Shown here in pieces: positions 8,242 through 22,666 of a DNA stretch of 24,000 bases (within the stretch, counting starts at the first letter, position 1; each line of letters begins with the position of its first letter). A model generated the notes under the pieces. The model worked only from the letters and a program-made list of their open reading frames with translations. It did not search any database and was not told the origin of the DNA. Source of the DNA: Stutzerimonas stutzeri (GTDB lineage Bacteria; Pseudomonadota; Gammaproteobacteria; Pseudomonadales; Pseudomonadaceae); contig NZ_CP007441.1 of the NCBI RefSeq assembly GCF_000590475.1, positions 2,025,208 through 2,049,207 of the forward strand. The letters run 5' to 3'. The position numbers and the translations under genes were made by a program.

Positions 8242-8471
8242 CGTCTGATCCTCATGACATGTTGTGGCGACTCGGCACTGCAAGTGATTACGAATCGATG
8301 AATGAAGCCAAACTGGCTAAGGTTTTTTTGGCTATCAACCGCGTCAGCCCAACGAGACAGCTCGATATCGCCTGCGTAAGTTCGTTGGGCAGCAGCGCGT
8401 TACAAAAAAACAAAGAGCCACTAGTCGGATTGGGTGATGGCAATTGGCCTTGGTGCGATAGACTGGCGGCG

Positions 8472-9085: not shown

Positions 9086-9625
9086 ATGTCCCGTAAGATC
9101 GTCGCTGGCGTCATGCTCGTAACTGCATCCCTGGTCGCCGGATCTGCTCTGGCAGCAGGCGAGTTGCAAGGCCAGATGAACGTGCAGATCACTATCGGCA
9201 GCGGCTGCACCGTTAGCAACGGCAGCAATGATGGCAGTCTCAACACGTTCGGCAGCATGACGTTCGGCGAATACGCCAGCCTGGATAACGTCATCGATGG
9301 CCGCTCGGTCGGCGCTGGCGGTGGCAGCTCCTTCGGTCTCAAGTGCAGCCAGGGCACCGCTTACAACGTAGCGTTGGATTCCGGTCAGAACGCCAGCGGC
9401 ACTGAGCGCCGCATGGGCAATGCTGGTGAGTACGTCAGCTATCAGCTGTACCAGGACGCCGGTCGCTCGCAGGCTTGGGGTAACGGCAGCAATGGCGGGA
9501 CCATGTTGGCTGGCGTAGGCACCGGCAATAACGAAGAGCTGGTCGTATATGGTCGCGTTCCGGCCCAGGCTACGCCGGCTGCTGGCACCTACGCAGACAC
9601 CGTGCAGGTCACCGTCGCCTGGTAA
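9086..9625 (+). CDS. Csu A/B (CupE1)-like major pilin, spore-coat-U domain
   Basis: 179 aa with strong RBS GGAGAGAAGG. Signal peptide MSRKIVAGVMLVTASLVAGSALA. SCPU pattern GQMNVQITIGSGCTVS...FGLKCSQGTAY...GTYADTVQVTVAW. First gene of a pilin-pilin-pilin-chaperone-usher-adhesin operon. Confidence 0.85.
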   Translation: MSRKIVAGVMLVTASLVAGSALAAGELQGQMNVQITIGSGCTVSNGSNDGSLNTFGSMTFGEYASLDNVIDGRSVGAGGGSSFGLKCSQGTAYNVALDSGQNASGTERRMGNAGEYVSYQLYQDAGRSQAWGNGSNGGTMLAGVGTGNNEELVVYGRVPAQATPAAGTYADTVQVTVAW

Positions 9626-9651
9626 GCCCAGGTCGTCGGAGCTTTCCAATC

Positions 9652-10167
9652 ATGGCCTTCATAGTCCGGGGTGCTCTGGCGATCTTGCTGCTATTGGCCG
9701 AGGGCCATGCAGCGATCGCCGCCAGCAAGACCGCGACCGTCGGCATCCGGGCCGAACTTCTCCCGGCATGCACTGCCGGCAGTGCGCAGGCAGGTGGGAC
9801 CACCTTCGGTACGTTGGATTTCGGCACTCACGTCTCGCTGGATAACGTCATCACGGTTGTTGGCCAGGCTGGCGCAGGCGCCTTGAGGGTCAACTGCCTG
9901 ACCGAGACGCCTTATCGCGTCCTGATCAGCGGAGGTAATAGCGGTTCGACAAACGACCGTGTCATGTCCGGTGCTGGTTCTGCGACGCTGCGTTACAACC
10001 TCTATACCGACGCCAATTTCAATGTCCTGTGGGATGACAGTACCGGTGTCAGCGGCTTGGGCAACGGTCAGGATCAGTGGCTTCCCGTTTATGGCCGCAT
10101 GCCCGCGCAGCCCATTTCCCAGACGGGGCTGTATAGCGACACGCTGACCGTTACAGTGAGTTGGTGA
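9652..10167 (+). CDS. CsuA (CupE2)-like minor pilin, spore-coat-U domain
   Basis: 171 aa with signal peptide. Motifs LPACTAGS...LDFG...LRVNCLTETPY...LRYNLY...GLYSDTLTVTVSW. Confidence 0.8.
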   Translation: MAFIVRGALAILLLLAEGHAAIAASKTATVGIRAELLPACTAGSAQAGGTTFGTLDFGTHVSLDNVITVVGQAGAGALRVNCLTETPYRVLISGGNSGSTNDRVMSGAGSATLRYNLYTDANFNVLWDDSTGVSGLGNGQDQWLPVYGRMPAQPISQTGLYSDTLTVTVSW

Positions 10168-10724
10168 TGATGCTTATACGCAGACATCCACTCAACGCCT
10201 GGTTGATTGTCGCGCTGATGGCTATGGGGCCGCTCGCGCTCGCGGATACCGGCACCAACGAGCAATCCACCAGCCAGAGTTTCCAGATCAGCGCGCGCGT
10301 CGAGCCCGGTTGCATCCTCGGCGGTGGCGCGGCGGACACGACTAACTTTGGCACGATCGATTTCGGACGCCTTGGTCAACTCGCCGCGGATATCAAGGTT
10401 GCCAGCTCATCGGGGAATGGATCGGTCATGCTGCAGTGCACGCCAGATACGCCCATCACGATAGCAATCGATGCCGGTCTGCATGGCAGTGGCGGTACCC
10501 GATACCTGGCCAAGGGCAACGAAACCTTGCGCTACCAGCTTTACCAGGACGAAGCCTTCTCCGTCGTGTGGGGCGATAACCGGGGCACGGGCACCGCATT
10601 GAGCATGACCTTCCCCTCGACTGGGGTTCAGACACTGCCCATCTACGCCCGACTGTTCCGCGAGACCACTCTGCCATCGGCCGGCATCTACACCGATGTC
10701 GTGACCGTCACTGTGACTTATTGA
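10167..10724 (+). CDS. CsuB (CupE3)-like minor pilin, spore-coat-U domain
   Basis: The track ORF starts at TTG 10161. ATG 10167 overlaps the upstream TGA (TGATG). Signal peptide LIVALMAMGPLALA. Motifs EPGCILGG...IDFG...LQCTPDTPI...LRYQLY...GIYTDVVTVTVTY. Confidence 0.8.
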   Translation: MMLIRRHPLNAWLIVALMAMGPLALADTGTNEQSTSQSFQISARVEPGCILGGGAADTTNFGTIDFGRLGQLAADIKVASSSGNGSVMLQCTPDTPITIAIDAGLHGSGGTRYLAKGNETLRYQLYQDEAFSVVWGDNRGTGTALSMTFPSTGVQTLPIYARLFRETTLPSAGIYTDVVTVTVTY

Positions 10725-10728
10725 CCAG

Positions 10729-11511
10729 ATGATGACCATGCCTGACTTCCTCTTTCGAAAACTATCCGTTCGTCCATTTCGATTGGCCGCGATTGCGCTG
10801 CTGACTACCTGCAGCGCAATGGCCGAAGCCGCCAGTTCGGTGCTGATCTGGCCTATCAATCCAACCATCGAGGCGGATGCCAGCGCTGCTGCCTTGTGGC
10901 TGGAAAACCGTGGTCAGGCGCCGGTTCGTCTGCAAGTTCGGGTGCTTGACTGGTCGCAGCAGGATCTGAACGACCAACTGGAGCCGCAGCAACAAGTCGT
11001 AGGCAGCCCGCCAATGGCTACGGTTGAGCCCGGTAAGCGCCAGCTGGTCCGCCTTATTCGCCGTCAGCCCGCCCCTGCAGGCCAGGAGCAAGCGTTTCGT
11101 GTCATCGTCGATGAGCTCCTGCCCGAGCGAACCCAGCGAGAAAATGACCTCGGCGTGCAATTCCAGATGCGTTATTCAGTGCCGCTGTTCGTATATGGCG
11201 CCGGCGCGACCGTGCCGGGCAAAAACAAAAGCGGGGAGGCTGACGGCACGGATCTCAGCTTTCGCATCGCTCAGGACAGCGGGCAAAGCTACCTGTACGT
11301 AAAAAACAGCGGCACGGTGCATGCTCGTATGTCTCAAGCGAGTCTGATGCAGGGGGCTCGCAAACTCGATATCGCCCAGGGTCTGCTCGGCTATGTTCTG
11401 CCAGCCAGTGAGATGCGCTGGCCGCTGCCGCCCGGCACGCCATCCGGTGGTGCGTCACTGCTCGTTCGGGTGAACGAGCAGGGCGAAGCGCAGACCATCG
11501 AGCCTAAGTGA
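10729..11511 (+). CDS. csuC: Periplasmic pilus chaperone (PapD fold), CsuC/CupE4-like
   Basis: 260 aa with signal peptide ...LLTTCSAMAEA. Has the chaperone signature SSVLIWPINPTIE...ALWLENRGQAPVRLQVRV...FRVIVDELLP...MRYSVPLFVY. Positioned between the pilins and the usher. Confidence 0.85.
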   Translation: MMTMPDFLFRKLSVRPFRLAAIALLTTCSAMAEAASSVLIWPINPTIEADASAAALWLENRGQAPVRLQVRVLDWSQQDLNDQLEPQQQVVGSPPMATVEPGKRQLVRLIRRQPAPAGQEQAFRVIVDELLPERTQRENDLGVQFQMRYSVPLFVYGAGATVPGKNKSGEADGTDLSFRIAQDSGQSYLYVKNSGTVHARMSQASLMQGARKLDIAQGLLGYVLPASEMRWPLPPGTPSGGASLLVRVNEQGEAQTIEPK

Positions 11512-11523
11512 TATCTGGCTAGG

Positions 11524-13866
11524 ATGAAGATTTGGCTTGGAATGGGCGTCCGCCGCTGGTGCCTTGGCCTGCTGCTGGTGCAGGGATTGTTATCCCTGCC
11601 GTTGGCACGTGCCGAGGAGGAAGCGATGGCCTTGTATCTTGAGCTGGTTCTCAACGGAATGCCGACCGGGCAGGTGCTTGAAGTGCAAACCCAAGGCGAT
11701 GAGCTGATGGTTACACGGGGTGCGCTTCGCGATGCCGGTGTGCCTATCGATGGGGAGGCGGACGGTCAGGTCTCCTTGGGCGAGCTTGAGGGCGTCACGG
11801 CTCGTTACGAGCAGGCGCTGCAGCAATTGTTACTTACCGTCCCGCTCGACTGGTTGCCGGAGCAGCGCCTGGGTCGTACCCGCGAGACCGAGCGCAGCGA
11901 CGCGGTGAGTTCGTTTGGAGCGCTGGTCAATTACGACCTGTTCTACAGCAATACAGACAGTGTCGGCGGCTATGTCAGTGCCTGGAGCGAACAACGCCTG
12001 TTCGGCGGCCTCGGCACGCTGAGCAACACCGGCGTGTTGCGGCATACACTCGACGGGCCTCCCGGCCGTGACGGTTATTTCCGCTTCGATACCACCTGGC
12101 GATACAACGATCAGGCGCGTCTGCTCAGCTATTCGGCGGGTGATATGGTCACCGGCGCCTTGAGTTGGAACAGCGCGGTGCGCATGGGAGGCGTGCAGTT
12201 GTCACGCAACTTCGCACTGCGCCCAGACCTGATCACCTATCCGCTGCCTAGCTTCAGCGGCGGAGCGGCGGTGCCGAGCACAGTGGACCTGTTCATCAAT
12301 AACGCCAAGGTCGACAGCGCAACGCTGCAGCCGGGGCCGTTCACGTTCGATACGCTGCCGCTGATCAGCGGGGCAGGGCAGGCCACTGTAGTGACGACCG
12401 ATGTCCAAGGGCGTCAGGTCAGTACCAGCGTGCCGTTTTACGTCACCAACACGCTGCTGCGTAAGGGTCTCACCGATTTTTCCTTCTCGCTGGGTAAGCT
12501 GCGTCAGGGGTACGGTGAAGACAGTTTCGCCTATGGCCGCAGCGCCACGTCTGGCACCTTTCGCTATGGCCTATTCGACAGCCTTACGCTGGAAAGTCAT
12601 GCCGAGGCGGCATCTGGACTCGCGCTGGGAGGCTTGGGCACCACCGTTGCCCTTGGACATTTCGGTGAGCTGACCACCTCGGCCACGCAGAGCCGCTACC
12701 TAGGCACCGCAGGACACCAACTTTCGATGGGCTACAGCTACTTCGCGCGGCGTTTCGGTGTATCGGCGCAGCGGGTGCAGCGGTCACGCGGATACGCCGA
12801 CCTCGCCGTGGAGGAGGCGCTCGATGCGCGTCCGCTTGACCCTTATTTAGCGCAGGTCAGCGATCAGCTGACTTTCACCATAAGCCCGCCTCAGATCGGC
12901 TCGATCGGTCTGGGATATTTCGCCAGCCGCATCGAAGGTGGTACTAGCACGCGGTTGCTCAACCTCTCATGGTCGCGGACGCTGTGGCGAAACCTGAATG
13001 TTTACGCATCGATAAACCGCATCATCGGTGAGTCCGGTATTTCAGCGCAGGCGCAGTTCAGTGTGCCGTTTGATCTCTTGTCGACCGTGACTGCCAGCAT
13101 CGAACGTGACCGCAGCGGCGCAACGGCCGAGCGGATCAGTTACAGCCGCAACGTGCCGAGTGACGGTGGGGTGGGCTGGAACCTGGCTATGGCTCATGGA
13201 CGCGAGACATACCGGCAGGCTGATCTGTCCTGGCGCAACCCGTTTCTGCAAGCCGAGGCCGGCGTCTACGGCACCGATAATGAGCTGACACACTGGGGCG
13301 ACGTAAGCGGTTCGCTGGTTGCGATGGACGGCGAGGTATTTGCCGCCAACCGCATCGATGATGCTTTCGTCGTGGTCAGCACCGGCGGCTACGCTGACGT
13401 GCCGGTCCGCTTCGAGCATCAGTTGCTGGGTCGGACCAATCGGGACGGCCATTTGTTGGTGCCTTGGGTACCTTCCTACTATCGCGGCCAGTTCGAGATC
13501 GAGCTGCTCGACCTGCCTGGCAACGTCAGCGCATCCGAGCCTGCCCGCTATCTTTCGGTCCAGCGAGGCAGCGGCGCTCTGCTTGATTTCGACTTGAGGC
13601 AACAGCTCGCTGCTGCAGTCACGCTGGTCGACGAACAGGGCGCGCCGCTACCGACGGGCCTGCGGGTCGAGCAAGTCGGCGCTGATACTCACGAGCTGCT
13701 TGGATATGACGGTCAGGTTTACTTTGAAGCGCTCGCGACCCACAACCGACTCGAGGTCGCCCTCGTCGATGGAGGGCGTTGTCAGGTCGAATTCGACATG
13801 CCGCCCCAATCCGATGAGATTGCTCAGATCGGGCCGCTCACTTGCCTCAGGAATCAAACACCATGA
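11524..13866 (+). CDS. csuD: Outer-membrane fimbrial usher, CsuD/CupE5-like
   Basis: 780 aa with signal peptide. N-terminal LYLELVLNGMPTG typical of ushers, then a long beta-barrel-type sequence. Its stop overlaps the next start (ATGA). Confidence 0.85.
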   Translation: MKIWLGMGVRRWCLGLLLVQGLLSLPLARAEEEAMALYLELVLNGMPTGQVLEVQTQGDELMVTRGALRDAGVPIDGEADGQVSLGELEGVTARYEQALQQLLLTVPLDWLPEQRLGRTRETERSDAVSSFGALVNYDLFYSNTDSVGGYVSAWSEQRLFGGLGTLSNTGVLRHTLDGPPGRDGYFRFDTTWRYNDQARLLSYSAGDMVTGALSWNSAVRMGGVQLSRNFALRPDLITYPLPSFSGGAAVPSTVDLFINNAKVDSATLQPGPFTFDTLPLISGAGQATVVTTDVQGRQVSTSVPFYVTNTLLRKGLTDFSFSLGKLRQGYGEDSFAYGRSATSGTFRYGLFDSLTLESHAEAASGLALGGLGTTVALGHFGELTTSATQSRYLGTAGHQLSMGYSYFARRFGVSAQRVQRSRGYADLAVEEALDARPLDPYLAQVSDQLTFTISPPQIGSIGLGYFASRIEGGTSTRLLNLSWSRTLWRNLNVYASINRIIGESGISAQAQFSVPFDLLSTVTASIERDRSGATAERISYSRNVPSDGGVGWNLAMAHGRETYRQADLSWRNPFLQAEAGVYGTDNELTHWGDVSGSLVAMDGEVFAANRIDDAFVVVSTGGYADVPVRFEHQLLGRTNRDGHLLVPWVPSYYRGQFEIELLDLPGNVSASEPARYLSVQRGSGALLDFDLRQQLAAAVTLVDEQGAPLPTGLRVEQVGADTHELLGYDGQVYFEALATHNRLEVALVDGGRCQVEFDMPPQSDEIAQIGPLTCLRNQTP

Positions 13867-14858
13867 AGGGAATCGACCATCTGATCAGTTACCCGCGCGC
13901 CTTGCTGTTCATGGTACTGGCGCTGCTTTGCTCGCTGCTGGCGACCCCGGCTCGTGCCAACTGCGCGACGTTCAGCGCTGACTCAAGTCTGGGCACGATC
14001 AGTTCGCTGGCTCTGGTGGGCAATTCTCAGCGGGGCGCCGCTGCTGGCGGATTTGTCTGTACGGGTTCATTGCAACTGTTGAGCACTGCCTTCATTCGAG
14101 TATCGCTGGTCAACAGTGACTTCAAACTGGTGGGCAGCCAAGGGGGTACGGTGCCCTTCAACGTATTCGTTGATCCGGGCTATACACGGGCCTTGCAGCC
14201 TGGGCAATCCGCTGAATTCGGTGCAACAAATTTGTTGAACCTAGGAGGCACCGGCGCTGGCGTGCCGCTGTACCTCACCACGACACCGGGCGCCAATGTC
14301 CCGGCCGGCACCTATACCGGCACGGTGACCCTGCGTTGGCACTGGGCCGTCTGCGACCTGGGTTTGGTTGGCATTTGCTCTTGGTATCGCAGCCCGGGGG
14401 TTGTACAACCCTGTCCGTTGGGCCTGGTTTGTGGGACACCCAGTAACTGGGGGGAGGGTGTGCTAACAACGGTCCGCGTCACGCTCATCGTAACCAAGGC
14501 CTGCCAGATCGTTAGCCTGCCGGCAGTGGATCTGGGACGTAAGGCGCTGGTCAGCCAGTTCACTGAGGTCAGCCAGACGCTCAGTGTCCGCTGTACTAAT
14601 ACCGAAGGTTTTACACTCAGTTTCGGCAATGGCCAGAACTATCAGGCACCTTGGCGGCAAATGGCGTTCGGCAATAACCGTCTTCGTTACAACATCTATG
14701 GAACTGATAAGTCGATGCTGACGCCTAGCCGGACGCTTGATGCAATCGGCACGGGGCTCAACCAGGGCTTTCAGGTGCAGATACAAGTGGATCCCAACCA
14801 GAAGGACGTTCCGCCTGGCACCTACGTCGATAACGTGGTGCTTACGCTCAGCTATTGA
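13863..14858 (+). CDS. csuE: Two-domain pilus tip protein, CsuE/CupE6-like putative adhesin
   Basis: ATG 13863 overlaps the usher stop. Signal peptide LLFMVLALLCSLLATPARA. The N-terminal domain ends GTYTGTVTLRW and the C-terminal pilin domain runs VTKACQIVS...LRYNIY...GTYVDNVVLTLSY, so both resemble SCPU domains. Last gene of the operon, as for Csu/CupE tip subunits. Confidence 0.75.
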   Translation: MKGIDHLISYPRALLFMVLALLCSLLATPARANCATFSADSSLGTISSLALVGNSQRGAAAGGFVCTGSLQLLSTAFIRVSLVNSDFKLVGSQGGTVPFNVFVDPGYTRALQPGQSAEFGATNLLNLGGTGAGVPLYLTTTPGANVPAGTYTGTVTLRWHWAVCDLGLVGICSWYRSPGVVQPCPLGLVCGTPSNWGEGVLTTVRVTLIVTKACQIVSLPAVDLGRKALVSQFTEVSQTLSVRCTNTEGFTLSFGNGQNYQAPWRQMAFGNNRLRYNIYGTDKSMLTPSRTLDAIGTGLNQGFQVQIQVDPNQKDVPPGTYVDNVVLTLSY

Positions 14859-14897: not shown

Positions 14898-15015
14898 AAT
14901 CCCGATATTGCGGTTTGGCGCTATTTCTTAAAATGGCCACCGACCCGCTCGTCGGCGGGCCTTTCGACGAGCGCTATCTGCGGTTGTCGTGTTCAGACTC
15001 GAATGGAGTTCGTGT

Positions 15016-15396
15016 GTGGCCAAAACAATACTCGTGGTAGACGATTCCGCGGCGATCCGTGAGCTATTCGTGGCAGCGCTCACCGAAGGCGGGTACCGCG
15101 CTGTGGAAGCCGTGGATGGGCTCGATGCGCTGGCCAAACTTGAAGAGCACTCCGTCAATTTACTGATAAGTGATTTGCATATGCCCAATCTCGATGGCAT
15201 TGGCCTGGTGCGTGCCGTGCGGGCGCATCCTCGGTATCGCTTTGCTCCGATCCTGGTACTGACCAGTGATCGGTCGCCAGCGAAGGAGGCGGAAGGGCTG
15301 GCCGTAGGCGCCACCGCCTGGGCCGCCAAGCCGATCCCCCCGCAGCGTTTACTCACGGCCATCGATACGCTGCTGGGCGAACATGCACCGGCTTGA
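15016..15396 (+). CDS. cheY: CheY-like single-domain response regulator
   Basis: The track ORF starts at GTG 14989. I prefer GTG 15016 (AKTILVVDDSAAIRE...) with GGAG 7 nt upstream. Receiver residues are intact: DD, ISDLHMPNLDG, VLTSD, AAKP. Confidence 0.85.
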   Translation: MAKTILVVDDSAAIRELFVAALTEGGYRAVEAVDGLDALAKLEEHSVNLLISDLHMPNLDGIGLVRAVRAHPRYRFAPILVLTSDRSPAKEAEGLAVGATAWAAKPIPPQRLLTAIDTLLGEHAPA

Positions 15397-15700
15397 AGTA
15401 ACGTATTCAGCTGAGTGCGTGACACTCGTATTCCGAGGTCGCTTGACACTCTACGAAATCCGGCATGCCCAGAGTGGGTTGCTGGCTGTAGCGCCGCTGG
15501 TCGAAAAAAGAAACTGTTATATCGATTTACGTCATATCGAACGCTTTGATATGGCCGCAGTGCAGCTACTCTTGGCTTGGGAGCGTCAAGTCCGCTCAAA
15601 TGCTCAATCCTTGCTGCTACAGACCAGCGACACGACGGCTGCACTGTTGCGATCGCTTGGTCTGAGCCGGCTGGTTGCACAATCACCAGAGGCGTTGTGA
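15383..15700 (+). CDS. STAS-domain protein (anti-sigma-antagonist fold) embedded in the che operon
   Basis: 105 aa. STAS-like pattern LVFRGRLTLYEI...YIDLRHIERFDMAAVQLLLAWERQ...LLLQTSDTTAALLRSLGL. Overlaps cheY by 14 nt, and its TGA overlaps the cheA ATG (TGATG). No SpoIIAA-type phosphorylatable Ser in the DMAAV position. Confidence 0.7.
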   Translation: MHRLEVTYSAECVTLVFRGRLTLYEIRHAQSGLLAVAPLVEKRNCYIDLRHIERFDMAAVQLLLAWERQVRSNAQSLLLQTSDTTAALLRSLGLSRLVAQSPEAL

Positions 15701-17901
15701 TGTTCCAGAACGACCAATGGACCCGCTTGCTGCTGGGGTTCGTTGACGAAGCCCGTGACACCGCGAGCCAGGCGGAAGCCCTCGTCCTCCAACTCGAGCA
15801 GGCGCCAAATGACGGGCAGGTCGTGGACGAGCTGTTCCGCCTCATGCACACATTCAAGGGCACCGCGGGGCTATTCGACCTCAAGCCTATCGTGCGCTTT
15901 GCACATCGCATCGAAAATGTGCTGGCTGAAGTCCGCCATGGGCAGCTTCGGCTTGATCCACGAGTCATGGCGCTGATGCTTGGCGGACTCGACGAAATTG
16001 TCTCGATGATCGAGCTCATCGATGCGGACACGGGCGAATTGCCGGTCGACGATGTCCATCAGGCCGAGCTGTTGTCTGCCTTCGATGCCCTTACAGGCGT
16101 GACCGAAGAACCAATGGGAATAGTGGCAACAGGTGTGGCGCCCGTCCCTGCTGATCAGCAAGTTACGGAGCCTGACCGCTTGTGGCTGATCTCGTTGCGG
16201 TTCGACGAGCGCGCGTTCATACAAGGGCTCGACCCCCAGGCGCTGGTGCAGGCGCTTGGTCGTCTGGGCTCTATCAAGCAGATCGATACGCTCAACGACG
16301 AATTACCTGTGCTGGCCGACATGGATCCGGAACGGTGTTACTTGGGGCTGGAAATCCAGCTGCAAAGCGCGGCGAGCAAGCCGGAGATTGAAAGTCTGTT
16401 CGACTTCGTCCGGCCTTTGTGCCGCTTTGTTGTTCGCCTGGCGTCCGACGCGCCGAGCATCCCGGCGAGCGTAGATGATGCCTCGAGCCAGGACACGCGC
16501 ATAGGCCATATCCTGCTCAATAGTGGCGCCTTGACCGCCGCGCAACTGGCGCAGGGCCTGGCTATACAGCAACGCCCAGCCGCACTAAAGCCGTCGTTGG
16601 GATCAGTGCTGGTCGAGGAAGGTCTGGTACCGGCGCAGCAGGTTAACGACGCGCTGGATTTGCAGCACCAGACCCGCCAGCGGCGTGCATACGAGGGCAG
16701 CGGTGTTCGCGTAGCGGCACAAAAGCTCGACCAGCTCGTCGACCTGGTCGGCGAACTGGTGACCAGCGCGGCAGGCGTCAAGGCCAGCATCGATCGGGAT
16801 GATCTGGCCGAAGGCGCCGAGCACCTGTGCACGGTCAGCCAGCACATCGCATCGCTGCGAGAGACGGCGCTCGGCCTGCGGATGGTCGAAGTCGGCGAGA
16901 CGTTCAGCCGCTTCCATCGTGTGGTACGTGACGTCAGCGAGCAGCTGCACAAAGAAATTCATCTTGATATCCGCGGCGCCGACACTGAGCTCGACAAGCT
17001 GATAATCGATCGGCTTGCCGATCCGCTCACGCATCTGGTCCGCAATGCCATTGCCCACGGTATCGAGCCGGCGCAGGAGCGCGGGCGCGGTGGTAAGCCC
17101 GTTCAGGGCCGGGTGCGCCTGGCCGCTCGCCAGGAGTCGGGCGTAGTGATCATTGAGGTCAGCGATGACGGGCGCGGGCTGGACTGGGACAAAATTCGCC
17201 GTCGGGCCGTGCAGCTTGGCCTGATCGATGCACACCGCGAGGTAGATCAGCGCGAACTGCGCTCGCTCATTTTCAGCCCTGGTTTCAGCACCGCCAGCAC
17301 CGTATCGGAGCTGTCCGGGCGCGGTGTAGGGCTTGATGTCGTGCGTGAGGTGGTCACTGACTTGCGTGGCGAGATCGAGGTGGAGTCGGTCCGAGGCGCT
17401 GGTACGCTGTTTCGTATCCGTGTGCCACTGACACTGGCCATCATCAATGGATTCCAGTTCAGCGTCGGTACCCAGCATTATGTGGTGCCGCTGGAAACGG
17501 TTCTCGAATGCCAGGAATGGCTGGGTCCCACCGGCCAGATCCATGGCAGCTTCGCCCGTCATGGCCGATCACGTCCATGCATCGATCTGGCGAGCCTTTT
17601 CGATGGCCGGACGGCATCCAACGGGGCGCGCCGCAACGCATTGGTGGTCAGTTATGGAAGCGAGGTTGGAGCACTGATTGCAGACGACCTATACGGCGAG
17701 TTGCAGACCGTGGTCAAACCGCTTGGTCCGATATTTCGGAACCTGCCGGGTATCAGCGGAGCGACCGTGTTGGGTTCAGGGGAAATTGCTCTGGTACTCG
17801 ACGTCGCCCACCTCTTTCACAATATTGCGCAATACATCGAGGCAGGCTCGCCCAACCCGTCTGCCAAGATTACCGAACCAGAACACCATGCTGAGGAGTA
17901 A
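15700..17901 (+). CDS. cheA: CheA histidine kinase (Hpt, variable region, dimerisation, HATPase and CheW-like domains)
   Basis: ATG 15700 ([11 protein letters not shown]...). Hpt site [15 protein letters not shown]. Dimerisation region [19 protein letters not shown]. ATPase boxes [33 protein letters not shown]-terminal CheW-like domain. The 5' part of the track ORF (15577-15699) overlaps the STAS gene and is not used. Confidence 0.92.
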
Positions 17902-17903
17902 CC

Positions 17904-19532
17904 ATGCTTGCCATCCATAACCTAAAAATCGGCACGCGCCTGATTGCAGGCTTCAGTCTGGTCGTTCTGCTCACTGCCGCAGTCGGCGCGGTTGGCATCG
18001 TCAATCTGGCGCGTGTCAATGCGTTGTCTGACCAGATGTATCATCGTGAAATGGGCGCGCTGGAAAGTATCCAGGATGCAAATGTGCACCTTGCCTACGC
18101 GGGCCGCAGCCTGCGCAGCAGTCTTTTAGCCACCACTTACATCGAGCGCGACACCGCTTCGAGTCAGCTTCAAGAAGCCTTGAAAGCCATGCACGCTTCG
18201 ATCGATCAGGCGCGACCAAGCTTCGACACAGCGGAGTCTCGGGCCCAGCTCGACGAGCTTGACGCACATGCCAGCCGTTACGAACGTGTCCTCAGCGATG
18301 TTTTGGAGCTGAGTCAATCTCGCGAGTTGATGACGCCGAACGAGATCGCACCCTTGCTTGCACAATTACAGAACTATGGCTCGGAGACAGACGCCGCGAT
18401 GAATACGCTGGTGGATGCCAAGCGCGAACGTGCGGGGCAGGCTAACCAGCAGATCGCAGAGATATATGACGATTCACGGCTGGAGATGATCGTGCTGGTG
18501 TTATTTGCCGCGGCGATCGGCTTCGCCGTTGGGGCGCTGATCACGCGCAGCATCACCCGCCCTCTTGGTCGTGCTGTGGCAGCGGCGGACCGCCTGGCGA
18601 AAGGTGAACTGGATGCTGCCATCGAAGCCGAAGGCCGGGATGAGACCGGCCAGCTGCTGGGCGCCATGCAACATATGGCTGGGCGGATGCGAGACGTCAT
18701 GAGTGATGTTCGGAGCGCGGCGGATGCGCTGTCCTCAGCTTCTGAACAGGTAAGCGCAACATCACAGTCGCTCAGCCAGGCGGCAACCGAGCAGGCTGCG
18801 AGCGTTGAGGAAACCTCGGCGGCAGTCGCCGAGATGGCTGCCTCGATCATGCGCAATACCGATAGCGCGCAAGAGACTGACCAGATAGCTGGCCGGGCTG
18901 CGGCCGGAGCCGTGGCCGGTGGTCGTGCGGTTAACGACATGGTCGATGCGATGAAACAGATCGCCGCACGGGTAGGCGTCATTGACGATATCGCCTACCA
19001 GACCAATCTACTGGCCTTGAATGCCACCATCGAGGCGGCACGCGCGGGCGATCATGGCCGTGGGTTCGCGGTGGTCGCAGCAGAAGTTCGGAAGCTTGCC
19101 GAGCGCTGCCAGGCTGCTGCGCAGGAAATCGGTGGCCTGGCCGCTGCCAATGTGCAACTGGCCGACCAAGCCGGTGCACAGCTCAAAGACATGGTGCCGG
19201 AAATCCTTCGCACCTCCGATCTGGTGCAGGAAATCTCGGCGGCGTCCCAGGAGCAGAGCAGCGGCACGGCGCAAATTCGCGCGACCATGGGCCAGATGAA
19301 CGAGATTACCCAGCAGAACGCGTCCGCTTCGGAGGAACTTGCCGCGACCGCGGAAGAGATGAACGCGCAAGCTGAACAGCTGCTCGAACTGATCAGCTAT
19401 TTTCACCTTGGCAACCTCTCCTTTGGAGGCGGCACAAGGCCAGGCACGCTTCGGCATGTGGGCACGAGCCACCGACCTCCGTTCGTGCACGCCGAAAGCA
19501 CTGACGAAGGTCAGTTCGTGCGTTTCACCTGA
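17904..19532 (+). CDS. Transmembrane methyl-accepting chemotaxis protein (periplasmic helical-bundle-type sensor, HAMP, signalling domain)
   Basis: 542 aa with RBS GAGGAG. Two TM segments ([21 protein letters not shown]; [19 protein letters not shown]). HAMP region [20 protein letters not shown]. Tip [39 protein letters not shown]-terminal tail ends ...DEGQFVRFT. Confidence 0.9.
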
Positions 19533-19539
19533 GGTTCGT

Positions 19540-20019
19540 GTGGATTCGATCAGCTATAAGCAGCATCTATCGTTTCGCGTGCAGGGCGCACGTTATGCGT
19601 TGGCGCTCGATCATGTCAGAGAGCTCATCGATTGCGGTCCGGTAACGCCCGTACCGCTCATGCCATCGTTCGTGCTTGGCATCGTCAATGTCCGAGGTTG
19701 CATGGTACCCGTCATCGACCTGGCGGCCCGGCTCGACCTGCCCCCAACGCAACGGAGCAAGCGCAGCTGTGTTGTGGTTGCCGAAGCGCTGTTCGATCAA
19801 CAGTCGCATCGTATCGGCCTGCTGGTGGAAGCCGTCGAAACGGTGCTAGACGTGCATGCAGACGATATCTCTCCGGCGCCAGTTTTTGGCAGCGACATCC
19901 GCCAGGATTTCATCGCGGGTGTACTAAACGGCAACCCGGGCGATACGGTCATTCTCGATTTACAGCAGTTGGTGATGCTCGGAGACCTGCAGCCGATCTT
20001 TCGGGCCGCCGCGCCGTGA
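19540..20019 (+). CDS. cheW: CheW coupling protein
   Basis: I prefer the GTG 19540 start (GAGG 5 nt upstream). CheW-like sequence LSFRVQGARYALALDHVRELID...LGIVNVRGCMVPVIDLAARLDL...VVVAEA...IGLLVEAVETVLDV. The upstream part of the track ORF overlaps the MCP. Confidence 0.85.
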   Translation: MDSISYKQHLSFRVQGARYALALDHVRELIDCGPVTPVPLMPSFVLGIVNVRGCMVPVIDLAARLDLPPTQRSKRSCVVVAEALFDQQSHRIGLLVEAVETVLDVHADDISPAPVFGSDIRQDFIAGVLNGNPGDTVILDLQQLVMLGDLQPIFRAAAP

Positions 20020-20828
20020 TTGTCGAGCGCCGGCCGCCATGCCTCGCCGACGAAGACTTTCAGTTCATCCGTGACCTGATGTTCGACGCCTCGGGTATTT
20101 CCATGGCCGATCACAAGCGCTCCCTCGTTGCGGGACGTCTCATGCCGCGGTTGCGTGCGCTGGGGCTTTGCAGCTACGCCGATTATGTGCAGCAACTCCG
20201 AAGCGCTGAGCAGCCGGGAGAACGCCGGCTGCTGATCGACCTTCTGACTACCAATGAGACGTCCTTTTTTCGCGAACCTGCTCATTTTGAAATGCTCGGA
20301 CGCTGGGTAGAGGAGCAAAACCGTCCTCTACATGTTTGGAGTGCCGCTGGCTCTTCCGGCCAGGAGGCGTTCAGCATCGCCATGACCCTGGCAGAGCACT
20401 GCTCCAGCACGAGCTGGTCGATCATCGGCAGCGATATCAGCCGAAAGGTCATGGAGCAGGCCCGACGCGCCGTTTATCCGATGGCGCAGGCGAGCCAATT
20501 CCCCCCGGGTTGGCTTGAGCGTTACTGTCTTCGCGGCATCGGTGCCAGCGAGGGTCTGTTTCGCATTGCCGAGCCGATTCGCCAGCGGGTCGAATTCGGC
20601 GAGATCAATCTCATCCAGCCATTGCCCGCTTCGCTCGGCCCGTTTGATGTGATTTTTTTGCGTAATCTGCTGATCTACTTCGATAGGCAGCACAAGCGGT
20701 TGATCCTCGCGCAATTGCTCGAGCGGCTCCGTGTTGGAGGGTTGCTGTTCATTTCCCATGCAGAAAACGTTCAAGGGATGGCGCTGCCGTTACGGGCCGT
20801 GCAACCGTCGATATTCGAGCGCCTATGA
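20016..20828 (+). CDS. cheR: CheR chemoreceptor methyltransferase
   Basis: GTG 20016 overlaps the cheW stop (GTGA). The long 5' extension of the track ORF (from 19632) lies inside cheW in another frame and is Arg/Pro-rich junk. Motifs FQFIRDLMFDASGI, LTTNETSFFREPAHF, VWSAAGSSGQEAFSIAM, IFLRNLLIYFD. Confidence 0.88.
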   Translation: MIVERRPPCLADEDFQFIRDLMFDASGISMADHKRSLVAGRLMPRLRALGLCSYADYVQQLRSAEQPGERRLLIDLLTTNETSFFREPAHFEMLGRWVEEQNRPLHVWSAAGSSGQEAFSIAMTLAEHCSSTSWSIIGSDISRKVMEQARRAVYPMAQASQFPPGWLERYCLRGIGASEGLFRIAEPIRQRVEFGEINLIQPLPASLGPFDVIFLRNLLIYFDRQHKRLILAQLLERLRVGGLLFISHAENVQGMALPLRAVQPSIFERL

Positions 20829-21895
20829 CGAAACAAGCTGAGCAAGACAGCGACATAGCGGTATTCATCATCGATCCGTCGGCGTTGGCGCGGCAGACTT
20901 TGGCGGGCTGCATCAATGCCCATCCACAGATGACGGTGATCGGTCAGGCGTCCGATCCGTTGTTCGCGCTGGCAAAAATGAAAAAGCGCTGGCCGGATGT
21001 CATGGTGCTGGATCTCGAGACACCAGAGACGGATGGCTTGGCCTTTCTACGCAAGGTCATGGCCGAGCGACCCACACCGGTCATCGTCTGCTCGGCGCTC
21101 GACAAAGCCCACACGTCGGCCAGCCTGGAGGCTCTCGCAGCGGGAGCAGTGAGTGTGCTGATCAAAGCCCGGTTAGGGGTTCGTGACGGGTTGCAGCAAC
21201 TGTCCGGCGAGTTGCTCAGGCAGATCGAGATCGCCGCGCGCAGCCGTCCGCAGCCAACAGAACGGTTGCTCGAAGCGAGTATGTCGGCCGGCGAGCCACC
21301 TATGCATCCGTTAAACCAGCAATCGTGCAGCCAACGGCTTGTGGCAATTGGTGCTTCTACCGGTGGAACCCAGGCGTTGGAGCGCGTGCTGTGTAAGTTG
21401 GATAAGGACTGTCCTGGACTGGTCATCGTCCAACACATGCCTGCCGGCTTTACCACCGCGTTCGCGCAGCGCCTGGACAATCGCTGCCGGATCGAGGTGC
21501 GAGAGGCCCGCCATCATGACGTTGTGCGCAGCGGCGTCGCATTCATCGCACCGGGAGGACGACAGACTGCGGTAAAGCGGCACGGCGGAAAGACGCTGAT
21601 CGAGATCAGCGACGGCCCGCCAGTGAATCATCACAAACCCTCGGTGGATGTACTTTTCGAATCCGTGGCCCGCTGCGTCGGCGCCGATGCTCTGGGCATC
21701 ATCATGACCGGTATGGGACATGATGGATCGAGGGGGATGTTGGCCATGCGCAACTCCGGTGCGTCTACACTGGCTCAAGATGAGGCCAGTTGCGTCGTCT
21801 ACGGCATGCCGAAGGAGGCGCTACGATTGGGTGCGGTGCAACATTCGGTCGATCTGGATGGCCTGGTCCACGCGATTCAGGCGTTTGGAAAATGA
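20825..21895 (+). CDS. cheB: CheB methylesterase with an atypical N-terminal receiver domain
   Basis: ATGA overlap with cheR. Esterase motifs IGASTGGTQAL, VIVQHMPAGFT and GMGHDG, with SCVVYGMPKEA. The receiver has the phospho-Asp (VMVLDLETPETDG), but the acidic pair reads D-P (FIIDPSALARQ) instead of D-D, and K is followed by A (LIKAR). Confidence 0.88.
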   Translation: MTKQAEQDSDIAVFIIDPSALARQTLAGCINAHPQMTVIGQASDPLFALAKMKKRWPDVMVLDLETPETDGLAFLRKVMAERPTPVIVCSALDKAHTSASLEALAAGAVSVLIKARLGVRDGLQQLSGELLRQIEIAARSRPQPTERLLEASMSAGEPPMHPLNQQSCSQRLVAIGASTGGTQALERVLCKLDKDCPGLVIVQHMPAGFTTAFAQRLDNRCRIEVREARHHDVVRSGVAFIAPGGRQTAVKRHGGKTLIEISDGPPVNHHKPSVDVLFESVARCVGADALGIIMTGMGHDGSRGMLAMRNSGASTLAQDEASCVVYGMPKEALRLGAVQHSVDLDGLVHAIQAFGK

Positions 21896-22024: not shown

Positions 22025-22666
22025 ATGACGTATCGTCTATTACTGGCCGATGACCACGAACTGATCCGAGCCGGTGTCCGGATCATGATTCAGGGGATGG
22101 ATCAGTACGAGATCGTCGCAGAAGCTGAGGATGGCCCCGAAGCGGTCACACTTGCCAACGAGCATAAACCGGACATTGTGATACTGGACATTTCGATGAA
22201 GGGAGGCGGTGGGCTTGAAGCGCTGCGCTCGATCGCTGAGGTCAGCCCGACAAGCAAGGTGTTGATGTTATCCATGCATACCGATGCGGAAACGGTGTTC
22301 GAGGCCTTGCAGCAGGGTGCGACTGGCTACTTGCTGAAAGACGCAGCCAAGGCCGAGCTGCACCTGGCGCTGCGCGCGGTCAGTCGCGGCGAGCGGTATC
22401 TCAGCTCGGCGATCATGCAGCCGGTCATTGCCCAGGCGCTGGCGAAACCTGCAGTAGAGGCCGAAGGCCTGACCCAGCGTCAGATCGAAATTCTTCGACT
22501 GATCACACGCGGTACCTCGACACGCGCCATCGCCGAAGGGCTAAGCCTGAGTGTCAAGACTGTGGAAGCGCACCGATCACAGATCATGCGGCGTTTGAAC
22601 ATCCATGACGTTCCCGGCCTAGTCCTCTACGCAGTGCGCGAAGGAATCATTAGCCCCGACGATTAG
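22025..22666 (+). CDS. NarL/FixJ (LuxR-HTH) family response regulator, no cognate kinase gene adjacent
   Basis: 213 aa with strong RBS AAGGAG. Receiver motifs LLLADDHELIR, DIVILDISMKGGGGLEAL, VLMLSMH, GYLLKDA. GerE/LuxR HTH LTQRQIEILRLITRGTSTRAIAEGLSLSVKTVEAHRSQIMRRLNI. Confidence 0.9.
   Translation: MTYRLLLADDHELIRAGVRIMIQGMDQYEIVAEAEDGPEAVTLANEHKPDIVILDISMKGGGGLEALRSIAEVSPTSKVLMLSMHTDAETVFEALQQGATGYLLKDAAKAELHLALRAVSRGERYLSSAIMQPVIAQALAKPAVEAEGLTQRQIEILRLITRGTSTRAIAEGLSLSVKTVEAHRSQIMRRLNIHDVPGLVLYAVREGIISPDD

What the first reader, a model, noticed from the sequence alone, without database searches (positions are those of the whole stretch)
16498..16665. Tandem MshEN-like (c-di-GMP receptor-like) 24-residue motifs inside CheA, between Hpt and the dimerisation domain
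Seen: CheA residues encoded at 16498-16569 read [24 protein letters not shown]. After an 8-residue spacer (QRPAALKP), 16594-16665 read [24 protein letters not shown]. Established: the MshEN c-di-GMP-binding domain of MshE and type II secretion/type IV pilus ATPases is defined by two tandem copies of RLGxx(L/V/I)(L/V/I)xxG(L/V/I)(L/V/I)xxxxLxxxLxxQ joined by a short spacer. The first copy here fits the spacing of every conserved position (R-x-G-xx-LL-xx-G-x-L-xxxx-L-xxx-L-xx-Q). The second fits all but the leading Arg, and its conserved Leu at position 17 is a Val. The segment sits where a CheY-binding P2 domain would normally be. Inference: CheA autophosphorylation or array coupling could be gated by c-di-GMP, which would fit a pathway next to an adhesive pilus operon. 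Caveats: the spacer is 8 rather than about 5 residues, motif 2 starts with Ser, and not every T2SSE_N-like repeat binds nucleotide.
Basis: partly seen in the sequence, partly recalled or inferred. Interest (0 to 1): 0.72.

Follow-up and report, generated by a model that had tools for sequence, protein, structure and literature searches.

The report
Cyclic-di-GMP-binding module inside CheA kinase
A chemotaxis-type kinase (CheA) of Stutzerimonas stutzeri carries, in the linker before its dimerisation domain, a small four-helix module of the MshEN_N type that binds the biofilm signal c-di-GMP in related proteins; this CheA design was already catalogued in 2016, when the same module from an Aeromonas CheA was shown to bind c-di-GMP, so this is a new example of a known kind.

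Summary
It is not chance: a tandem pair arose in 0 of 20,000 shuffles. A profile of 55 homologous CheA segments finds only MshEN/GSPII domains in the PDB (E 1.8e-24 to 1e-4). The curated 53-position NCBIfam model NF053729 scores 45.7 bits (cut-off 38). That equals the Aeromonas veronii CheA fragment (45.2), which binds c-di-GMP with KD 2.6 µM, and far exceeds non-binder XpsE (17.1). AlphaFold gives a four-helix bundle whose best PDB match is c-di-GMP-bound MshE (5HTL, rmsd 1.1 Å). The missing Pfam T2SSE_N hit means nothing, because proven binders also miss it. A P2-like domain is present (residues 160-247), so the module sits in the P2-P3 linker. The Csu pilus adjacency was seen only in the three Stutzerimonas-type loci (window, L004, L005). 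[quoted passage not shown] 2016. Whether c-di-GMP changes CheA output was not reported in any paper I found. Verdict: new member of a known kind, modest interest.

The parts
15700..17901 (+). cheA, 733 aa, 100% identical to a Stutzerimonas stutzeri CheA (P0001)
   Evidence: ORF. Pfam Hpt, H-kinase_dim, HATPase_c and CheW. Identity to P0001. The ATG overlaps the STAS stop codon.
15709..16095 (+). P1 (Hpt) domain, residues 4-132
   Evidence: Pfam Hpt E=5.9e-15. Five-helix prediction with pLDDT >90.
16177..16440 (+). P2-like α/β domain, residues 160-247. No Pfam or PDB sequence match.
   Evidence: AF2 strands and helices with pLDDT about 90. 46% mean identity across homologues. Wang 2016 labels this position 'CheY-binding' in the A. 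veronii homologue. phmmer against the PDB gave only spurious TALE-repeat hits.
16486..16695 (+). MshEN_N four-helix bundle, residues 263-332, inserted in the P2-P3 linker
   Evidence: AF2 helices 263-275, 280-290, 300-306 and 312-332. Foldseek top hit 5HTL, TMq 0.78, rmsd 1.1 Å. NF053729 45.7 bits against a cut-off of 38. Profile against the PDB.
16498..16569 (+). Motif I: [24 protein letters not shown] (residues 267-290)
   Evidence: G3, L6, L17, L21 and Q24 are invariant in 68 of 68 homologous CheA segments; R1 occurs in 59 of 68.
16570..16593 (+). Inter-motif spacer QRPAALKP (8 residues), predicted loop
   Evidence: Spacer length 8 in 34 of 68 and 9 in 17 of 68 segments. Only 26% identity across homologues. 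pLDDT dips here.
16594..16665 (+). Motif II: [24 protein letters not shown] (residues 299-322)
   Evidence: G3, A20 and Q24 are invariant; V17 occurs in 67 of 68. Position 1 is P37/A12/R9/S3/K3.
16708..16881 (+). P3 dimerisation hairpin, residues 337-394, starting about 15 residues after Q322
   Evidence: Pfam H-kinase_dim. AF2 helices 340-367 and 370-394.
16882..17844 (+). P4 kinase domain (395-580) and P5 CheW-like domain (581-715)
   Evidence: Pfam HATPase_c and CheW. AF2 model.
14989..15396 (+). cheY-like single-domain response regulator
   Evidence: Pfam Response_reg. Conserved directly upstream in all ten loci examined.
15383..15700 (+). STAS-only protein (CheS-like position), translationally coupled to cheA
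   Evidence: Pfam STAS_2. A STAS-only gene is called between cheY and cheA in nine of the ten other loci; none is called in L004, which has a 300-bp gap there.
17904..19532 (+). Transmembrane MCP (4HB-HAMP-MCPsignal)
19540..20019 (+). cheW (likely GTG start, 159 aa)
   Evidence: Length agrees with L005.
20016..20828 (+). cheR (likely GTG start, 270 aa)
   Evidence: Length agrees with L004 and L005.
20825..21895 (+). cheB
22025..22666 (+). REC-GerE (NarL-type) response regulator that accompanies the cluster in most loci
   Evidence: Present next to the cluster in L001-L005, L007, L009 and L010.
9086..14858 (+). Csu-type chaperone-usher pilus operon (3 SCPU pilins, PapD chaperone, usher, SCPU tip protein). 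Context only; adjacency is clade-specific.
   Evidence: and the ORFs. The Usher Pfam family is recorded for the equivalent 780- and 778-aa genes of L004 and L005, where the operon is also adjacent; it is absent from the other eight loci.

Best explanation
Residues about 263-332 of this S. stutzeri CheA form an MshEN_N domain. This is a four-helix bundle built from two 24-residue half-sites that together clamp one c-di-GMP molecule. The domain is inserted as a cassette into the normally flexible P2-P3 linker, about 15 residues before the first P3 helix. Shown here: the domain's identity, its predicted fold, its family-wide conservation and its position. Shown elsewhere: the homologous fragment of A. 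veronii CheA binds c-di-GMP with KD 2.6 µM. Inferred: this protein also binds c-di-GMP in the low-micromolar range. Both backbone-contact glycines (G269, G301), both glutamines (Q290, Q322) and the hydrophobic clamp residues (I268, L283, L287, L300, V315, L319) are present, and only the less critical Arg of half-site II is missing. Most likely mechanism (inferred, untested): ligand binding rigidifies the bundle at the base of the P1-P2 tether. That would change how readily P1 reaches the P4 ATP site, or how P2 and the CheS-like STAS protein present CheY and CheB. Kinase or phosphotransfer output of this accessory array would then become a function of both receptor state and cellular c-di-GMP. 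The array has the gene order CheY-STAS-CheA-MCP-CheW-CheR-CheB plus a NarL-type regulator.
For: Sequence as quoted. Not chance. phmmer and profile searches of the PDB hit only MshEN/GSPII domains: PilF 1.8e-24, PilB 6.7e-10, MshE 5HTL 3e-7 and c-di-GMP-bound PilF GSPII-B 1e-6, while the next unrelated hit has E=0.21. NCBIfam NF053729 'c-di-GMP_motif' scores 45.7 bits against a cut-off of 38, and 55 of 55 family members hit it. Controls: proven binders score 61.6-81.5 bits, the A. veronii CheA binder 45.2 and the non-binder XpsE 17.1. AF2 gives a four-helix bundle with pLDDT 84, and the top 14 Foldseek hits are all MshEN-type, best 5HTL_B at rmsd 1.1 Å. G3 and Q24 are invariant in both motifs across 68 CheAs, and the motifs are 57-58% identical against 9-11% for the linkers. 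Wang et al. 2016 (PMC5013675) list this exact architecture and measured KD 2.6 µM for A. veronii CheA residues 261-390. The window segment is 47% identical to that fragment. Mutational data: changing conserved hydrophobic residues costs more than 10-fold in affinity, the G11L and G40I variants bind poorly if at all, and R9 and Q32 changes cost less than 5-fold. A PAS-GGDEF-EAL gene lies within 10 kb in 3 of the 10 related loci.
Against: No binding measurement exists for this protein. Half-site II starts with Ser rather than Arg/Lys, and that position is variable in the Pseudomonas clade. The NF053729 match is split in two and the full-length protein clears the cut-off only just (38.6 against 38). 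In MshE itself c-di-GMP changed ATPase activity by less than 10% in vitro, so binding need not alter catalysis directly. Orthologous clusters in P. cichorii, P. japonica and others function without the module. AF2 places low confidence on residues 331-336, so rigid coupling to P3 is not predicted. No paper in the searched library reports an effect on CheA.
Confidence: 0.7

Rival explanations
1. The module is a degenerate MshEN_N that no longer binds nucleotide. It would serve instead as a docking surface or structured spacer, for example for the CheS-like STAS protein, a PilZ protein or CheY. This would resemble Xanthomonas PilB, whose MshEN-like N-terminus binds PilZ.
For: Ser299 replaces the Arg of half-site II, and that position is unconstrained in the clade. 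Foldseek hits include the X. citri PilB(N)-PilZ complexes 7LKM, 7LKN and 7LKO. Wang et al. warn that some listed proteins lack a recognisable binding motif and that many MshEN domains have lost binding. A STAS gene always accompanies the cluster.
Against: The residues changed in the non-binder XpsE (G11V, G40L, L54H, L58C, Q61V and others) are all intact here. Gln24, which contacts the ligand rather than the protein core, is invariant in both half-sites in 68 of 68 segments. The HMM score equals that of the proven A. veronii CheA binder and is far above XpsE. STAS is equally present in orthologous clusters whose CheA lacks the module, so STAS does not depend on it.
Confidence: 0.18
2. The module binds a different cyclic dinucleotide, such as 3'3'-cGAMP, as its physiological ligand.
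For: VcMshEN_N binds cGAMP detectably (KD 3.3e-4 M). Half-site II is asymmetric relative to half-site I (Ser1, Val17, Ala20), which could in principle favour a mixed-base ligand.
Against: cGAMP affinity in MshEN is about 600-fold weaker than c-di-GMP affinity. The homologous A. veronii fragment binds c-di-GMP. Nothing in the window points to a cGAMP synthase.
Confidence: 0.04
3. The resemblance arises by chance from an amphipathic helical linker, and there is no domain.
For: There is no Pfam T2SSE_N hit.
Against: 0 of 20,000 shuffles gave a tandem pair. The profile E-value against MshEN structures is 1.8e-24. The curated HMM scores above its cut-off. The fold is predicted with confidence. The Pfam miss is reproduced by proven binders.
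Confidence: 0.01

Closest known systems
Aeromonas veronii CheA EKB11881 (Wang et al. 2016, Nat Commun 7:12481, Suppl. Tables 4 and 6, Suppl. Fig. 3c)
   Same: [quoted passage not shown] The module sits at the same position (residues about 260-342 there, 262-336 here). The segments are 47% identical. Both have a long spacer (9 there, 8 here) and a non-Arg residue at one position-1 site. NF053729 scores are the same (45.2 and 45.7 bits).
   Different: Different genus. A. veronii has Met at motif I position 1 and Lys at motif II position 1, while this protein has Arg and Ser. Binding was measured there (KD 2.6 µM for residues 261-390) and not here. The gene neighbourhood of the Aeromonas gene was not examined.
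Vibrio cholerae MshE N-terminal domain (MshEN_N, PDB 5HTL)
   Same: Two 24-residue half-sites forming a four-helix bundle. It is the best structural match to the predicted model (TMq 0.78, rmsd 1.1 Å). All ligand-contact classes are present: G3, Q24 and the hydrophobic residues at positions 2, 17 and 21.
   Different: In MshE the domain is N-terminal, is followed by MshEN_C/T2SSE_N1 and regulates a secretion or pilus ATPase. Its spacer is 5 residues and both half-sites start with Arg. Here the module is internal, lacks MshEN_C and is fused to a histidine kinase.
Thermus thermophilus PilF GSPII domains (PDB 6F8L, 8PDK, 8PFA)
   Same: The strongest sequence match (E=1.8e-24). The third PilF domain has the same 'RLG…Q – 7-residue spacer – PLG…Q' layout as most Pseudomonas CheA modules.
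   Different: These are tandem triplicate domains at the N-terminus of a type IV pilus ATPase, with no kinase.
Other routes by which c-di-GMP reaches chemosensory systems (PilZ-domain chemoreceptor Cbp1 of Azorhizobium, PMC6454048; PlzC of V. cholerae, PMC12799141; the MapZ-CheR1 adaptor of P. aeruginosa, cited)
   Same: All couple c-di-GMP level to chemosensory signalling.
   Different: Those act through PilZ domains on receptors, on the methyltransferase or on the motor. Here the receptor module sits inside the kinase itself.
Orthologous Pseudomonas clusters with MshEN_N-less CheA (P. cichorii P0093, P. japonica P0076). These may correspond to the P. syringae F8 system with CheA1 and CheY1 (PMC11253619); that equivalence is my inference and was not tested.
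   Same: Same gene order: sMCP-CheY-STAS-CheA-MCP-CheW-CheR-(CheD)-CheB-GerE response regulator. CheA is 42-45% identical.
   Different: Their P2-P3 linker is short or low-complexity, with no MshEN_N. They also lack the Csu operon.

Membership tests
MshEN_N c-di-GMP-binding domain (Wang et al. 2016) | Two tandem 24-residue motifs RLGxx(L/V/I)(L/V/I)xxG(L/V/I)(L/V/I)xxxxLxxxLxxQ | tested here: met
   Motif I fits every conserved position (I for L at position 2, A at position 11). Motif II fits except S at position 1 and V at position 17. The V17 and the non-Arg position 1 are the consensus of 68 CheA homologues. Motif I matches the authors' relaxed pattern, which allows [RKPN] at position 1; motif II misses it only because of Ser at that position.
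MshEN_N c-di-GMP-binding domain | Short spacer joining the two motifs (5 residues in VcMshE, giving a 53-residue unit) | tested here: inconclusive
   The spacer is 8 residues, so the unit is 56. The commonest family length is 8 and nearly all are 7-12. The A. veronii CheA binder has 9, so a longer loop is tolerated. It does split the NF053729 alignment into two stretches.
MshEN_N c-di-GMP-binding domain | Curated sequence model of the 53-residue binding unit (NCBIfam NF053729, cut-off 38 bits) | tested here: met
   45.7 bits (E=4e-12) for the 66-aa segment and 38.6 bits for the whole CheA. 55 of 55 homologues hit. Controls: binders 45-82 bits, non-binder XpsE 17 bits.
MshEN_N c-di-GMP-binding domain | Four-helix-bundle fold made of two helical hairpins | tested here: met
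   AF2 predicts four helices with pLDDT 84, and the same helices appear in the full-length model. The top Foldseek hit is 5HTL_B with rmsd 1.1 Å over 58 columns, and ranks 1-14 are all MshEN-type. This is a prediction, not an experimental structure.
MshEN_N c-di-GMP-binding domain | Ligand-contact residues retained (G3 backbone amides, Q24 side chains, hydrophobic triads at positions 2, 17 and 21, Arg1 stacking) | tested here: met
   G269, G301, Q290, Q322, I268, L283, L287, L300, V315, L319 and R267 are present. Only Arg1 of half-site II is missing (Ser299). Changing the motif I Arg (R9) cost less than 5-fold in MshE.
MshEN_N c-di-GMP-binding domain | Measured specific binding of c-di-GMP | not testable with these tools
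   Known only for the A. veronii homologue (KD 2.6 µM).
Pfam T2SSE_N (PF05157) | Match to the Pfam model | tested here: not met
   No hit at E<=10 for the CheA, the segment or any of 55 homologues. The test is uninformative: the N-terminal 61-76 residues of proven binders (PA3740, Moth_1554, TM0837, MxPilB) give no hit either. In 2016 the model lacked the first three helices. The module also lacks the MshEN_C/T2SSE_N1 subdomain.
CheA histidine kinase | P1 (Hpt), P3 (H-kinase_dim), P4 (HATPase_c) and P5 (CheW-like) domains in order, in a che gene cluster | tested here: met
   All Pfam hits are above their cut-offs. The AF2 domain map agrees. Neighbours are CheY, STAS, MCP, CheW, CheR and CheB.
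CheA histidine kinase | P2 (response-regulator-binding) domain between P1 and P3 | tested here: inconclusive
   A conserved α/β domain is predicted at residues 160-247 with pLDDT about 90. It has no Pfam or PDB sequence match, and its fold was not compared separately.

The most novel reading that the evidence does not exclude
c-di-GMP occupancy of the MshEN_N cassette in the P2-P3 linker directly gates the phosphorylation output of a non-flagellar chemosensory array (CheY-STAS-CheA-MCP-CheW-CheR-CheB). The kinase would then act as a coincidence detector of receptor signal and second messenger. In Stutzerimonas this output would feed, through the adjacent NarL-type regulator, into expression of the neighbouring Csu adhesive pilus. 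The natural MshEN_N-less orthologues in the P. cichorii and P. japonica lineages would be the 'uncoupled' versions.
Probability: 0.2. Interest if true: 0.6.

Novelty: new member of a known kind. Interest (0 to 1): 0.3.

Why it matters
c-di-GMP is known to reach chemotaxis through PilZ proteins acting on receptors, on CheR or on the motor. A receptor module built into CheA itself would be a more direct route. It has been known since 2016 only as a line in a supplementary table plus one binding constant, and I found no functional follow-up in the searched literature. This window adds three things. It gives a well-conserved Stutzerimonas/Pseudomonas family of such kinases. It gives the precise placement of the module: it replaces the P2-P3 linker and does not replace P2. 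It also gives natural orthologues without the module, which make a clean comparative experiment possible. It does not establish a new kind of system.

Tried and rejected
There was no hit for the CheA, the segment or 55 homologues. I rejected it as a test after positive controls with proven binders also failed.

(2) The search for homologous proteins with a 156-aa piece returned nothing, a word-filter artefact. The full-length query worked.

I therefore did not retrieve the A. veronii locus or a taxon-wide census.

(4) The search of protein representatives with A1 found 19,243 clusters at E<=1e-3. The top 150 are multi-repeat MshEN_N proteins, so the search was not useful for counting CheAs.

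(5) phmmer of the P2-like region against the PDB gave only spurious TALE-repeat matches.

(6) The Csu pilus adjacency as a functional argument: rejected as general, because it was seen only in the window and the two Stutzerimonas-type loci (against 43-45, 65-67, 70, 71).

(7) The non-binding third domain of D. geothermalis PilB as a warning for this protein: rejected. That construct pairs a PLG motif with an 'RLE' motif that lacks Gly3, which is unlike this protein.

(8) Literature searches for an effect of c-di-GMP on a MshEN-containing CheA found none.
Full report
The segment lies in a 774-codon ORF. The real start of that ORF is almost certainly the ATG at 15700, which overlaps the stop codon of the upstream STAS gene as TGATG. 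This gives a 733-aa CheA that is 100% identical to a database CheA from Stutzerimonas stutzeri. In this numbering motif I is residues 267-290, the spacer 291-298 and motif II 299-322. Pfam finds Hpt (12-101), H-kinase_dim (337-389), HATPase_c and CheW.

IS IT MORE THAN CHANCE? Yes. The relaxed 24-residue pattern occurs 0.009 times per shuffled CheA. A tandem pair occurred in 0 of 20,000 shuffles. The only two matches in all six reading frames of the window are these two. The raw 100-aa segment already matches the three GSPII/MshEN domains of T. thermophilus PilF at E=2.7e-9 and PilB N-termini at about 0.008.

WHAT IT IS. I collected 120 CheA homologues. About 70 of them carry the same two motifs at the same position. 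A profile of 55 such segments (A1) searched against all PDB sequences returns only MshEN/GSPII domains. These are PilF at 1.8e-24, PilB of Geobacter and Myxococcus at 6.7e-10 to 1.6e-9, V. cholerae MshE (5HTL) at 3e-7 and the c-di-GMP-bound PilF GSPII-B domain at 1e-6. The first unrelated hit has E=0.21.

NCBIfam holds a curated 53-position model of exactly this binding unit: NF053729, 'cyclic di-GMP-binding domain-containing protein, MshE-related', cut-off 38 bits. The window segment scores 45.7 bits (E=4e-12) and the whole CheA 38.6 bits. All 55 homologues hit the model. I calibrated it with sequences from Wang et al.'s supplement. Four MshEN_N sequences with the intact motif score 61.6-81.5 bits; binding has been measured for PA3740 and Moorella GspE, and the other two are TM0837 and M. 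xanthus PilB. The A. veronii CheA fragment scores 45.2 bits in two stretches, the same as the window. The non-binder Xanthomonas XpsE scores 17.1 bits.

AlphaFold2 on A1 predicts four helices with pLDDT 84. Foldseek against the PDB ranks c-di-GMP-bound MshE first (5HTL_B, TMq 0.78, rmsd 1.1 Å over 58 columns, probability 1.0). Ranks 1-14 are all MshEN-type domains. The E-values are weak (0.03 and above) because the domain is only 66 residues long.

THE PFAM MISS. It is formally met for Pfam: there is no hit at E<=10 for the protein, the segment or any of 55 homologues, only a sub-threshold DUF4388 match. This is not evidence against the domain. The N-terminal 61-76 residues of proven binders behave identically. 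Wang et al. also state that, at the time, PF05157 lacked the first three helices of MshEN_N and hence the binding site.

THE CAVEATS ARE FAMILY TRAITS. I examined 68 CheA segments position by position. Motif I has G3, L6, L17, L21 and Q24 invariant, and R1 in 59 of 68. Motif II has G3, A20 and Q24 invariant and V17 in 67 of 68, so the 'Val instead of Leu' is the consensus. Position 1 of motif II is P37/A12/R9/S3/K3. The spacer is 8 residues in 34 segments, 9 in 17 and 7-12 in most of the rest.

The two motifs are as conserved as the catalytic domains. Their mean identity to the window is 57-58%, against 49% for P1, 47% for P3, 63% for P4 and 47% for P5. The flanking linkers are 9-11% and the inter-motif spacer 26%. 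In MshE the roles of these residues are known. The Gly3 backbone amides hydrogen-bond to guanine. The Gln24 side chains hydrogen-bond to ribose and phosphate. The hydrophobic residues at positions 2, 17 and 21 clamp the bases. Changing those hydrophobic residues costs more than 10-fold in affinity, and the G11L and G40I variants show poor binding, if any. R9, D12 and Q32 changes cost less than 5-fold. The invariance of both glutamines, which are ligand contacts and not core residues, is the best internal argument that binding is retained.

ALREADY PUBLISHED. Wang et al. 2016 (Nat Commun 7:12481, PMC5013675) state that MshEN associates with 'chemotaxis protein kinase CheA'. [quoted passage not shown] Supplementary Fig. 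3c aligns its residues 260-342. Supplementary Table 6 reports KD 2.6 µM for c-di-GMP with the fragment 261-390. That fragment has Met at motif I position 1, Lys at motif II position 1 and a 9-residue spacer. It is 47% identical to the window segment. So neither the non-Arg start nor the longer spacer prevents binding. Four literature searches found no later study of what c-di-GMP does to such a CheA.

ANATOMY AND PLACEMENT. The full-length AlphaFold2 model has pLDDT 82.8. Its domain map is as follows.
- P1: residues 4-132.
- Disordered tether: 137-156.
- Confidently predicted α/β P2-like domain: 160-247.
- Disordered stretch: 252-262.
- MshEN_N helices: 263-275, 280-290, 300-306 and 312-332.
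- Low-confidence junction: 331-336.
- P3 helices: 340-367 and 370-394.
- P4 and P5 follow.

P2 is present and the module occupies the P2-P3 linker. Alignment A2 shows this cleanly. About 675-aa orthologues from P. gingeri, P. aylmerensis, P. japonica and P. cichorii have a short or low-complexity linker exactly between the end of P2 (FIxDFCTLR…) and the start of P3 (…IRVAAHKLDELINLV). P0056 has a same-length low-complexity stretch instead. The module is thus a cassette that has been gained or lost within one orthologous kinase.

GENOMIC CONTEXT. The window carries the following, in order.
- A Csu-type chaperone-usher pilus operon, 9086-14858.
- cheY, 14989-15396.
- A STAS-only gene, 15383-15700.
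- cheA.
- A 4HB-HAMP MCP, 17904-19532.
- cheW, 19540-20019.
- cheR, 20016-20828.
- cheB, 20825-21895.
- A REC-GerE regulator, 22025-22666.

In all ten related loci the core CheY-(STAS)-CheA-MCP-CheW-CheR-(CheD)-CheB is conserved; the STAS gene is called in nine of them, the exception being L004. It is usually preceded by a soluble MCP and usually accompanied by a REC-GerE regulator. The two loci whose CheA lacks MshEN_N have the same cluster.

The Csu operon is adjacent only in the window and the two loci whose CheAs are 70% and 75% identical (one from S. marianensis, one an unnamed ENA metagenome contig). There it takes the place of the soluble MCP. The pilus adjacency is therefore a lineage-specific rearrangement and does not explain the far more widespread module. 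A PAS-GGDEF-EAL gene lies within 10 kb in three loci. This is suggestive but weak, because such genes are common and two of the three loci share synteny. The STAS protein occupies the position of CheS of S. meliloti and A. fabrum. CheS binds CheA and changes its handling of CheY (PMC12654446). Homology to CheS was not tested.

HOW IT MOST LIKELY WORKS. Shown: a conserved MshEN_N bundle with an intact ligand site lies about 15 residues before P3, at the base of the P1-P2 tether. Shown elsewhere: the homologous fragment binds c-di-GMP at 2.6 µM, which is within the 0.05-10 µM cellular range quoted. Inferred with probability about 0.7: this protein binds c-di-GMP with micromolar affinity. Inferred with probability about 0.4: binding alters signalling output. 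The likely routes are stiffening or repositioning the tether that delivers P1 to the P4 ATP site, or changing P2 and STAS-mediated presentation of CheY and CheB. One caution applies: c-di-GMP barely changes MshE ATPase activity in vitro. MshEN effects may therefore need partners or assembly, so an array-level rather than a catalytic effect is plausible.

RIVALS. Three alternatives were considered.
- A degenerate module that does not bind nucleotide and serves as a docking site, as in the Xanthomonas PilB N-terminus that binds PilZ (7LKM appears among the fold hits). Probability about 0.18. It is disfavoured by the invariant Gly and Gln residues and by the HMM score, which matches the proven binder.
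- A different cyclic dinucleotide as ligand. Probability about 0.04. MshEN binds cGAMP about 600-fold more weakly than c-di-GMP.
- Chance resemblance. Refuted.

VERDICT. The identification as an MshEN-type c-di-GMP receptor module is strongly supported. The P2 statement is wrong and the pilus argument is weak. The functional inference is reasonable but untested, and it was already made in print in 2016, together with a binding constant for a homologue. This is a new member of a known kind. The residual interest lies in the unanswered question of what c-di-GMP does to a CheA, and in the natural orthologues with and without the module that this family offers for answering it.

Noticed in passing
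window 9086-14858 (+); L004 3381-9164; L005 3385-9166: A complete Csu-type chaperone-usher pilus operon (three SCPU pilins, PapD-like chaperone, usher, SCPU tip protein) sits directly upstream of cheY. This is seen only in the window and the two Stutzerimonas-type loci. It occupies the place that a soluble MCP gene holds in seven of the other eight related clusters.
   Followed up: partly
L009 8001-10073 (P. cichorii) and L010 8001-10037 (P. japonica); alignment A2: Orthologous chemosensory clusters exist whose CheA lacks the MshEN_N cassette. They have a short or low-complexity P2-P3 linker instead. These are natural with/without-module pairs within one cluster type.
   Followed up: partly
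L002 4660-8283; L003 4841-8074; L006 3373-6216: A large PAS-GGDEF-EAL protein is encoded within 10 kb upstream of the cluster in three distant loci. In L002 and L003 it comes with a PAS-HisKA_3 kinase and a REC-GerE regulator. This may be a local c-di-GMP source or sink, but the association is statistically weak.
   Followed up: no
window 22025-22666 (+): A NarL/GerE-type response regulator follows cheB here and accompanies the cluster in 8 of the 10 related loci. Its best NCBIfam match is MctR at 170 bits, below the 300-bit cut-off. It is a candidate transcriptional output of the pathway.
   Followed up: partly
window 15383-15700 (+): A STAS-only gene lies between cheY and cheA and is translationally coupled to cheA (TGATG overlap). 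It is in the position of rhizobial CheS, which binds CheA. Homology to CheS itself was not tested.
   Followed up: partly
window 20825-20828: cheR and cheB overlap directly and there is no cheD, whereas five of the ten related clusters (L002, L006, L008 with the module; L009 without it) have cheD between them.
   Followed up: no
window 19408-20019 and 19632-20828 (+): The mechanically longest ORFs for cheW (203 aa) and cheR (398 aa) are over-extended. The likely starts are GTG 19540 (159 aa) and GTG 20016 (270 aa), which match the lengths of the orthologues.
   Followed up: yes
Pfam PF14332 (DUF4388), profile positions about 49-76: Both the CheA modules (53 of 55) and proven MshEN_N binders give sub-threshold hits to the same part of DUF4388. 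That family seems to contain an MshEN-like half-motif.
   Followed up: no
Proteins P0121-P0135: The best-scoring representatives for the CheA MshEN_N profile are long proteins with 4-9 tandem MshEN_N-like stretches (for example P0121, 1162 aa, 7 stretches). Their architectures were not examined.
   Followed up: no
window 6676-8283 (-): A PAS-containing soluble or Aer-like MCP is encoded on the opposite strand upstream of the Csu operon. An AraC-family regulator (4566-5444, -) and a TonB-dependent receptor (2417-4417, +) lie further upstream.
   Followed up: no
L004 5024-5810 and 9697-10001; L005 15099-16150: In related loci the chaperone gene (L004) and cheB (L005) are called as two pieces, which may reflect frameshifts or assembly errors. 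The STAS gene is not called in L004 although a 300-bp gap is there.
   Followed up: no
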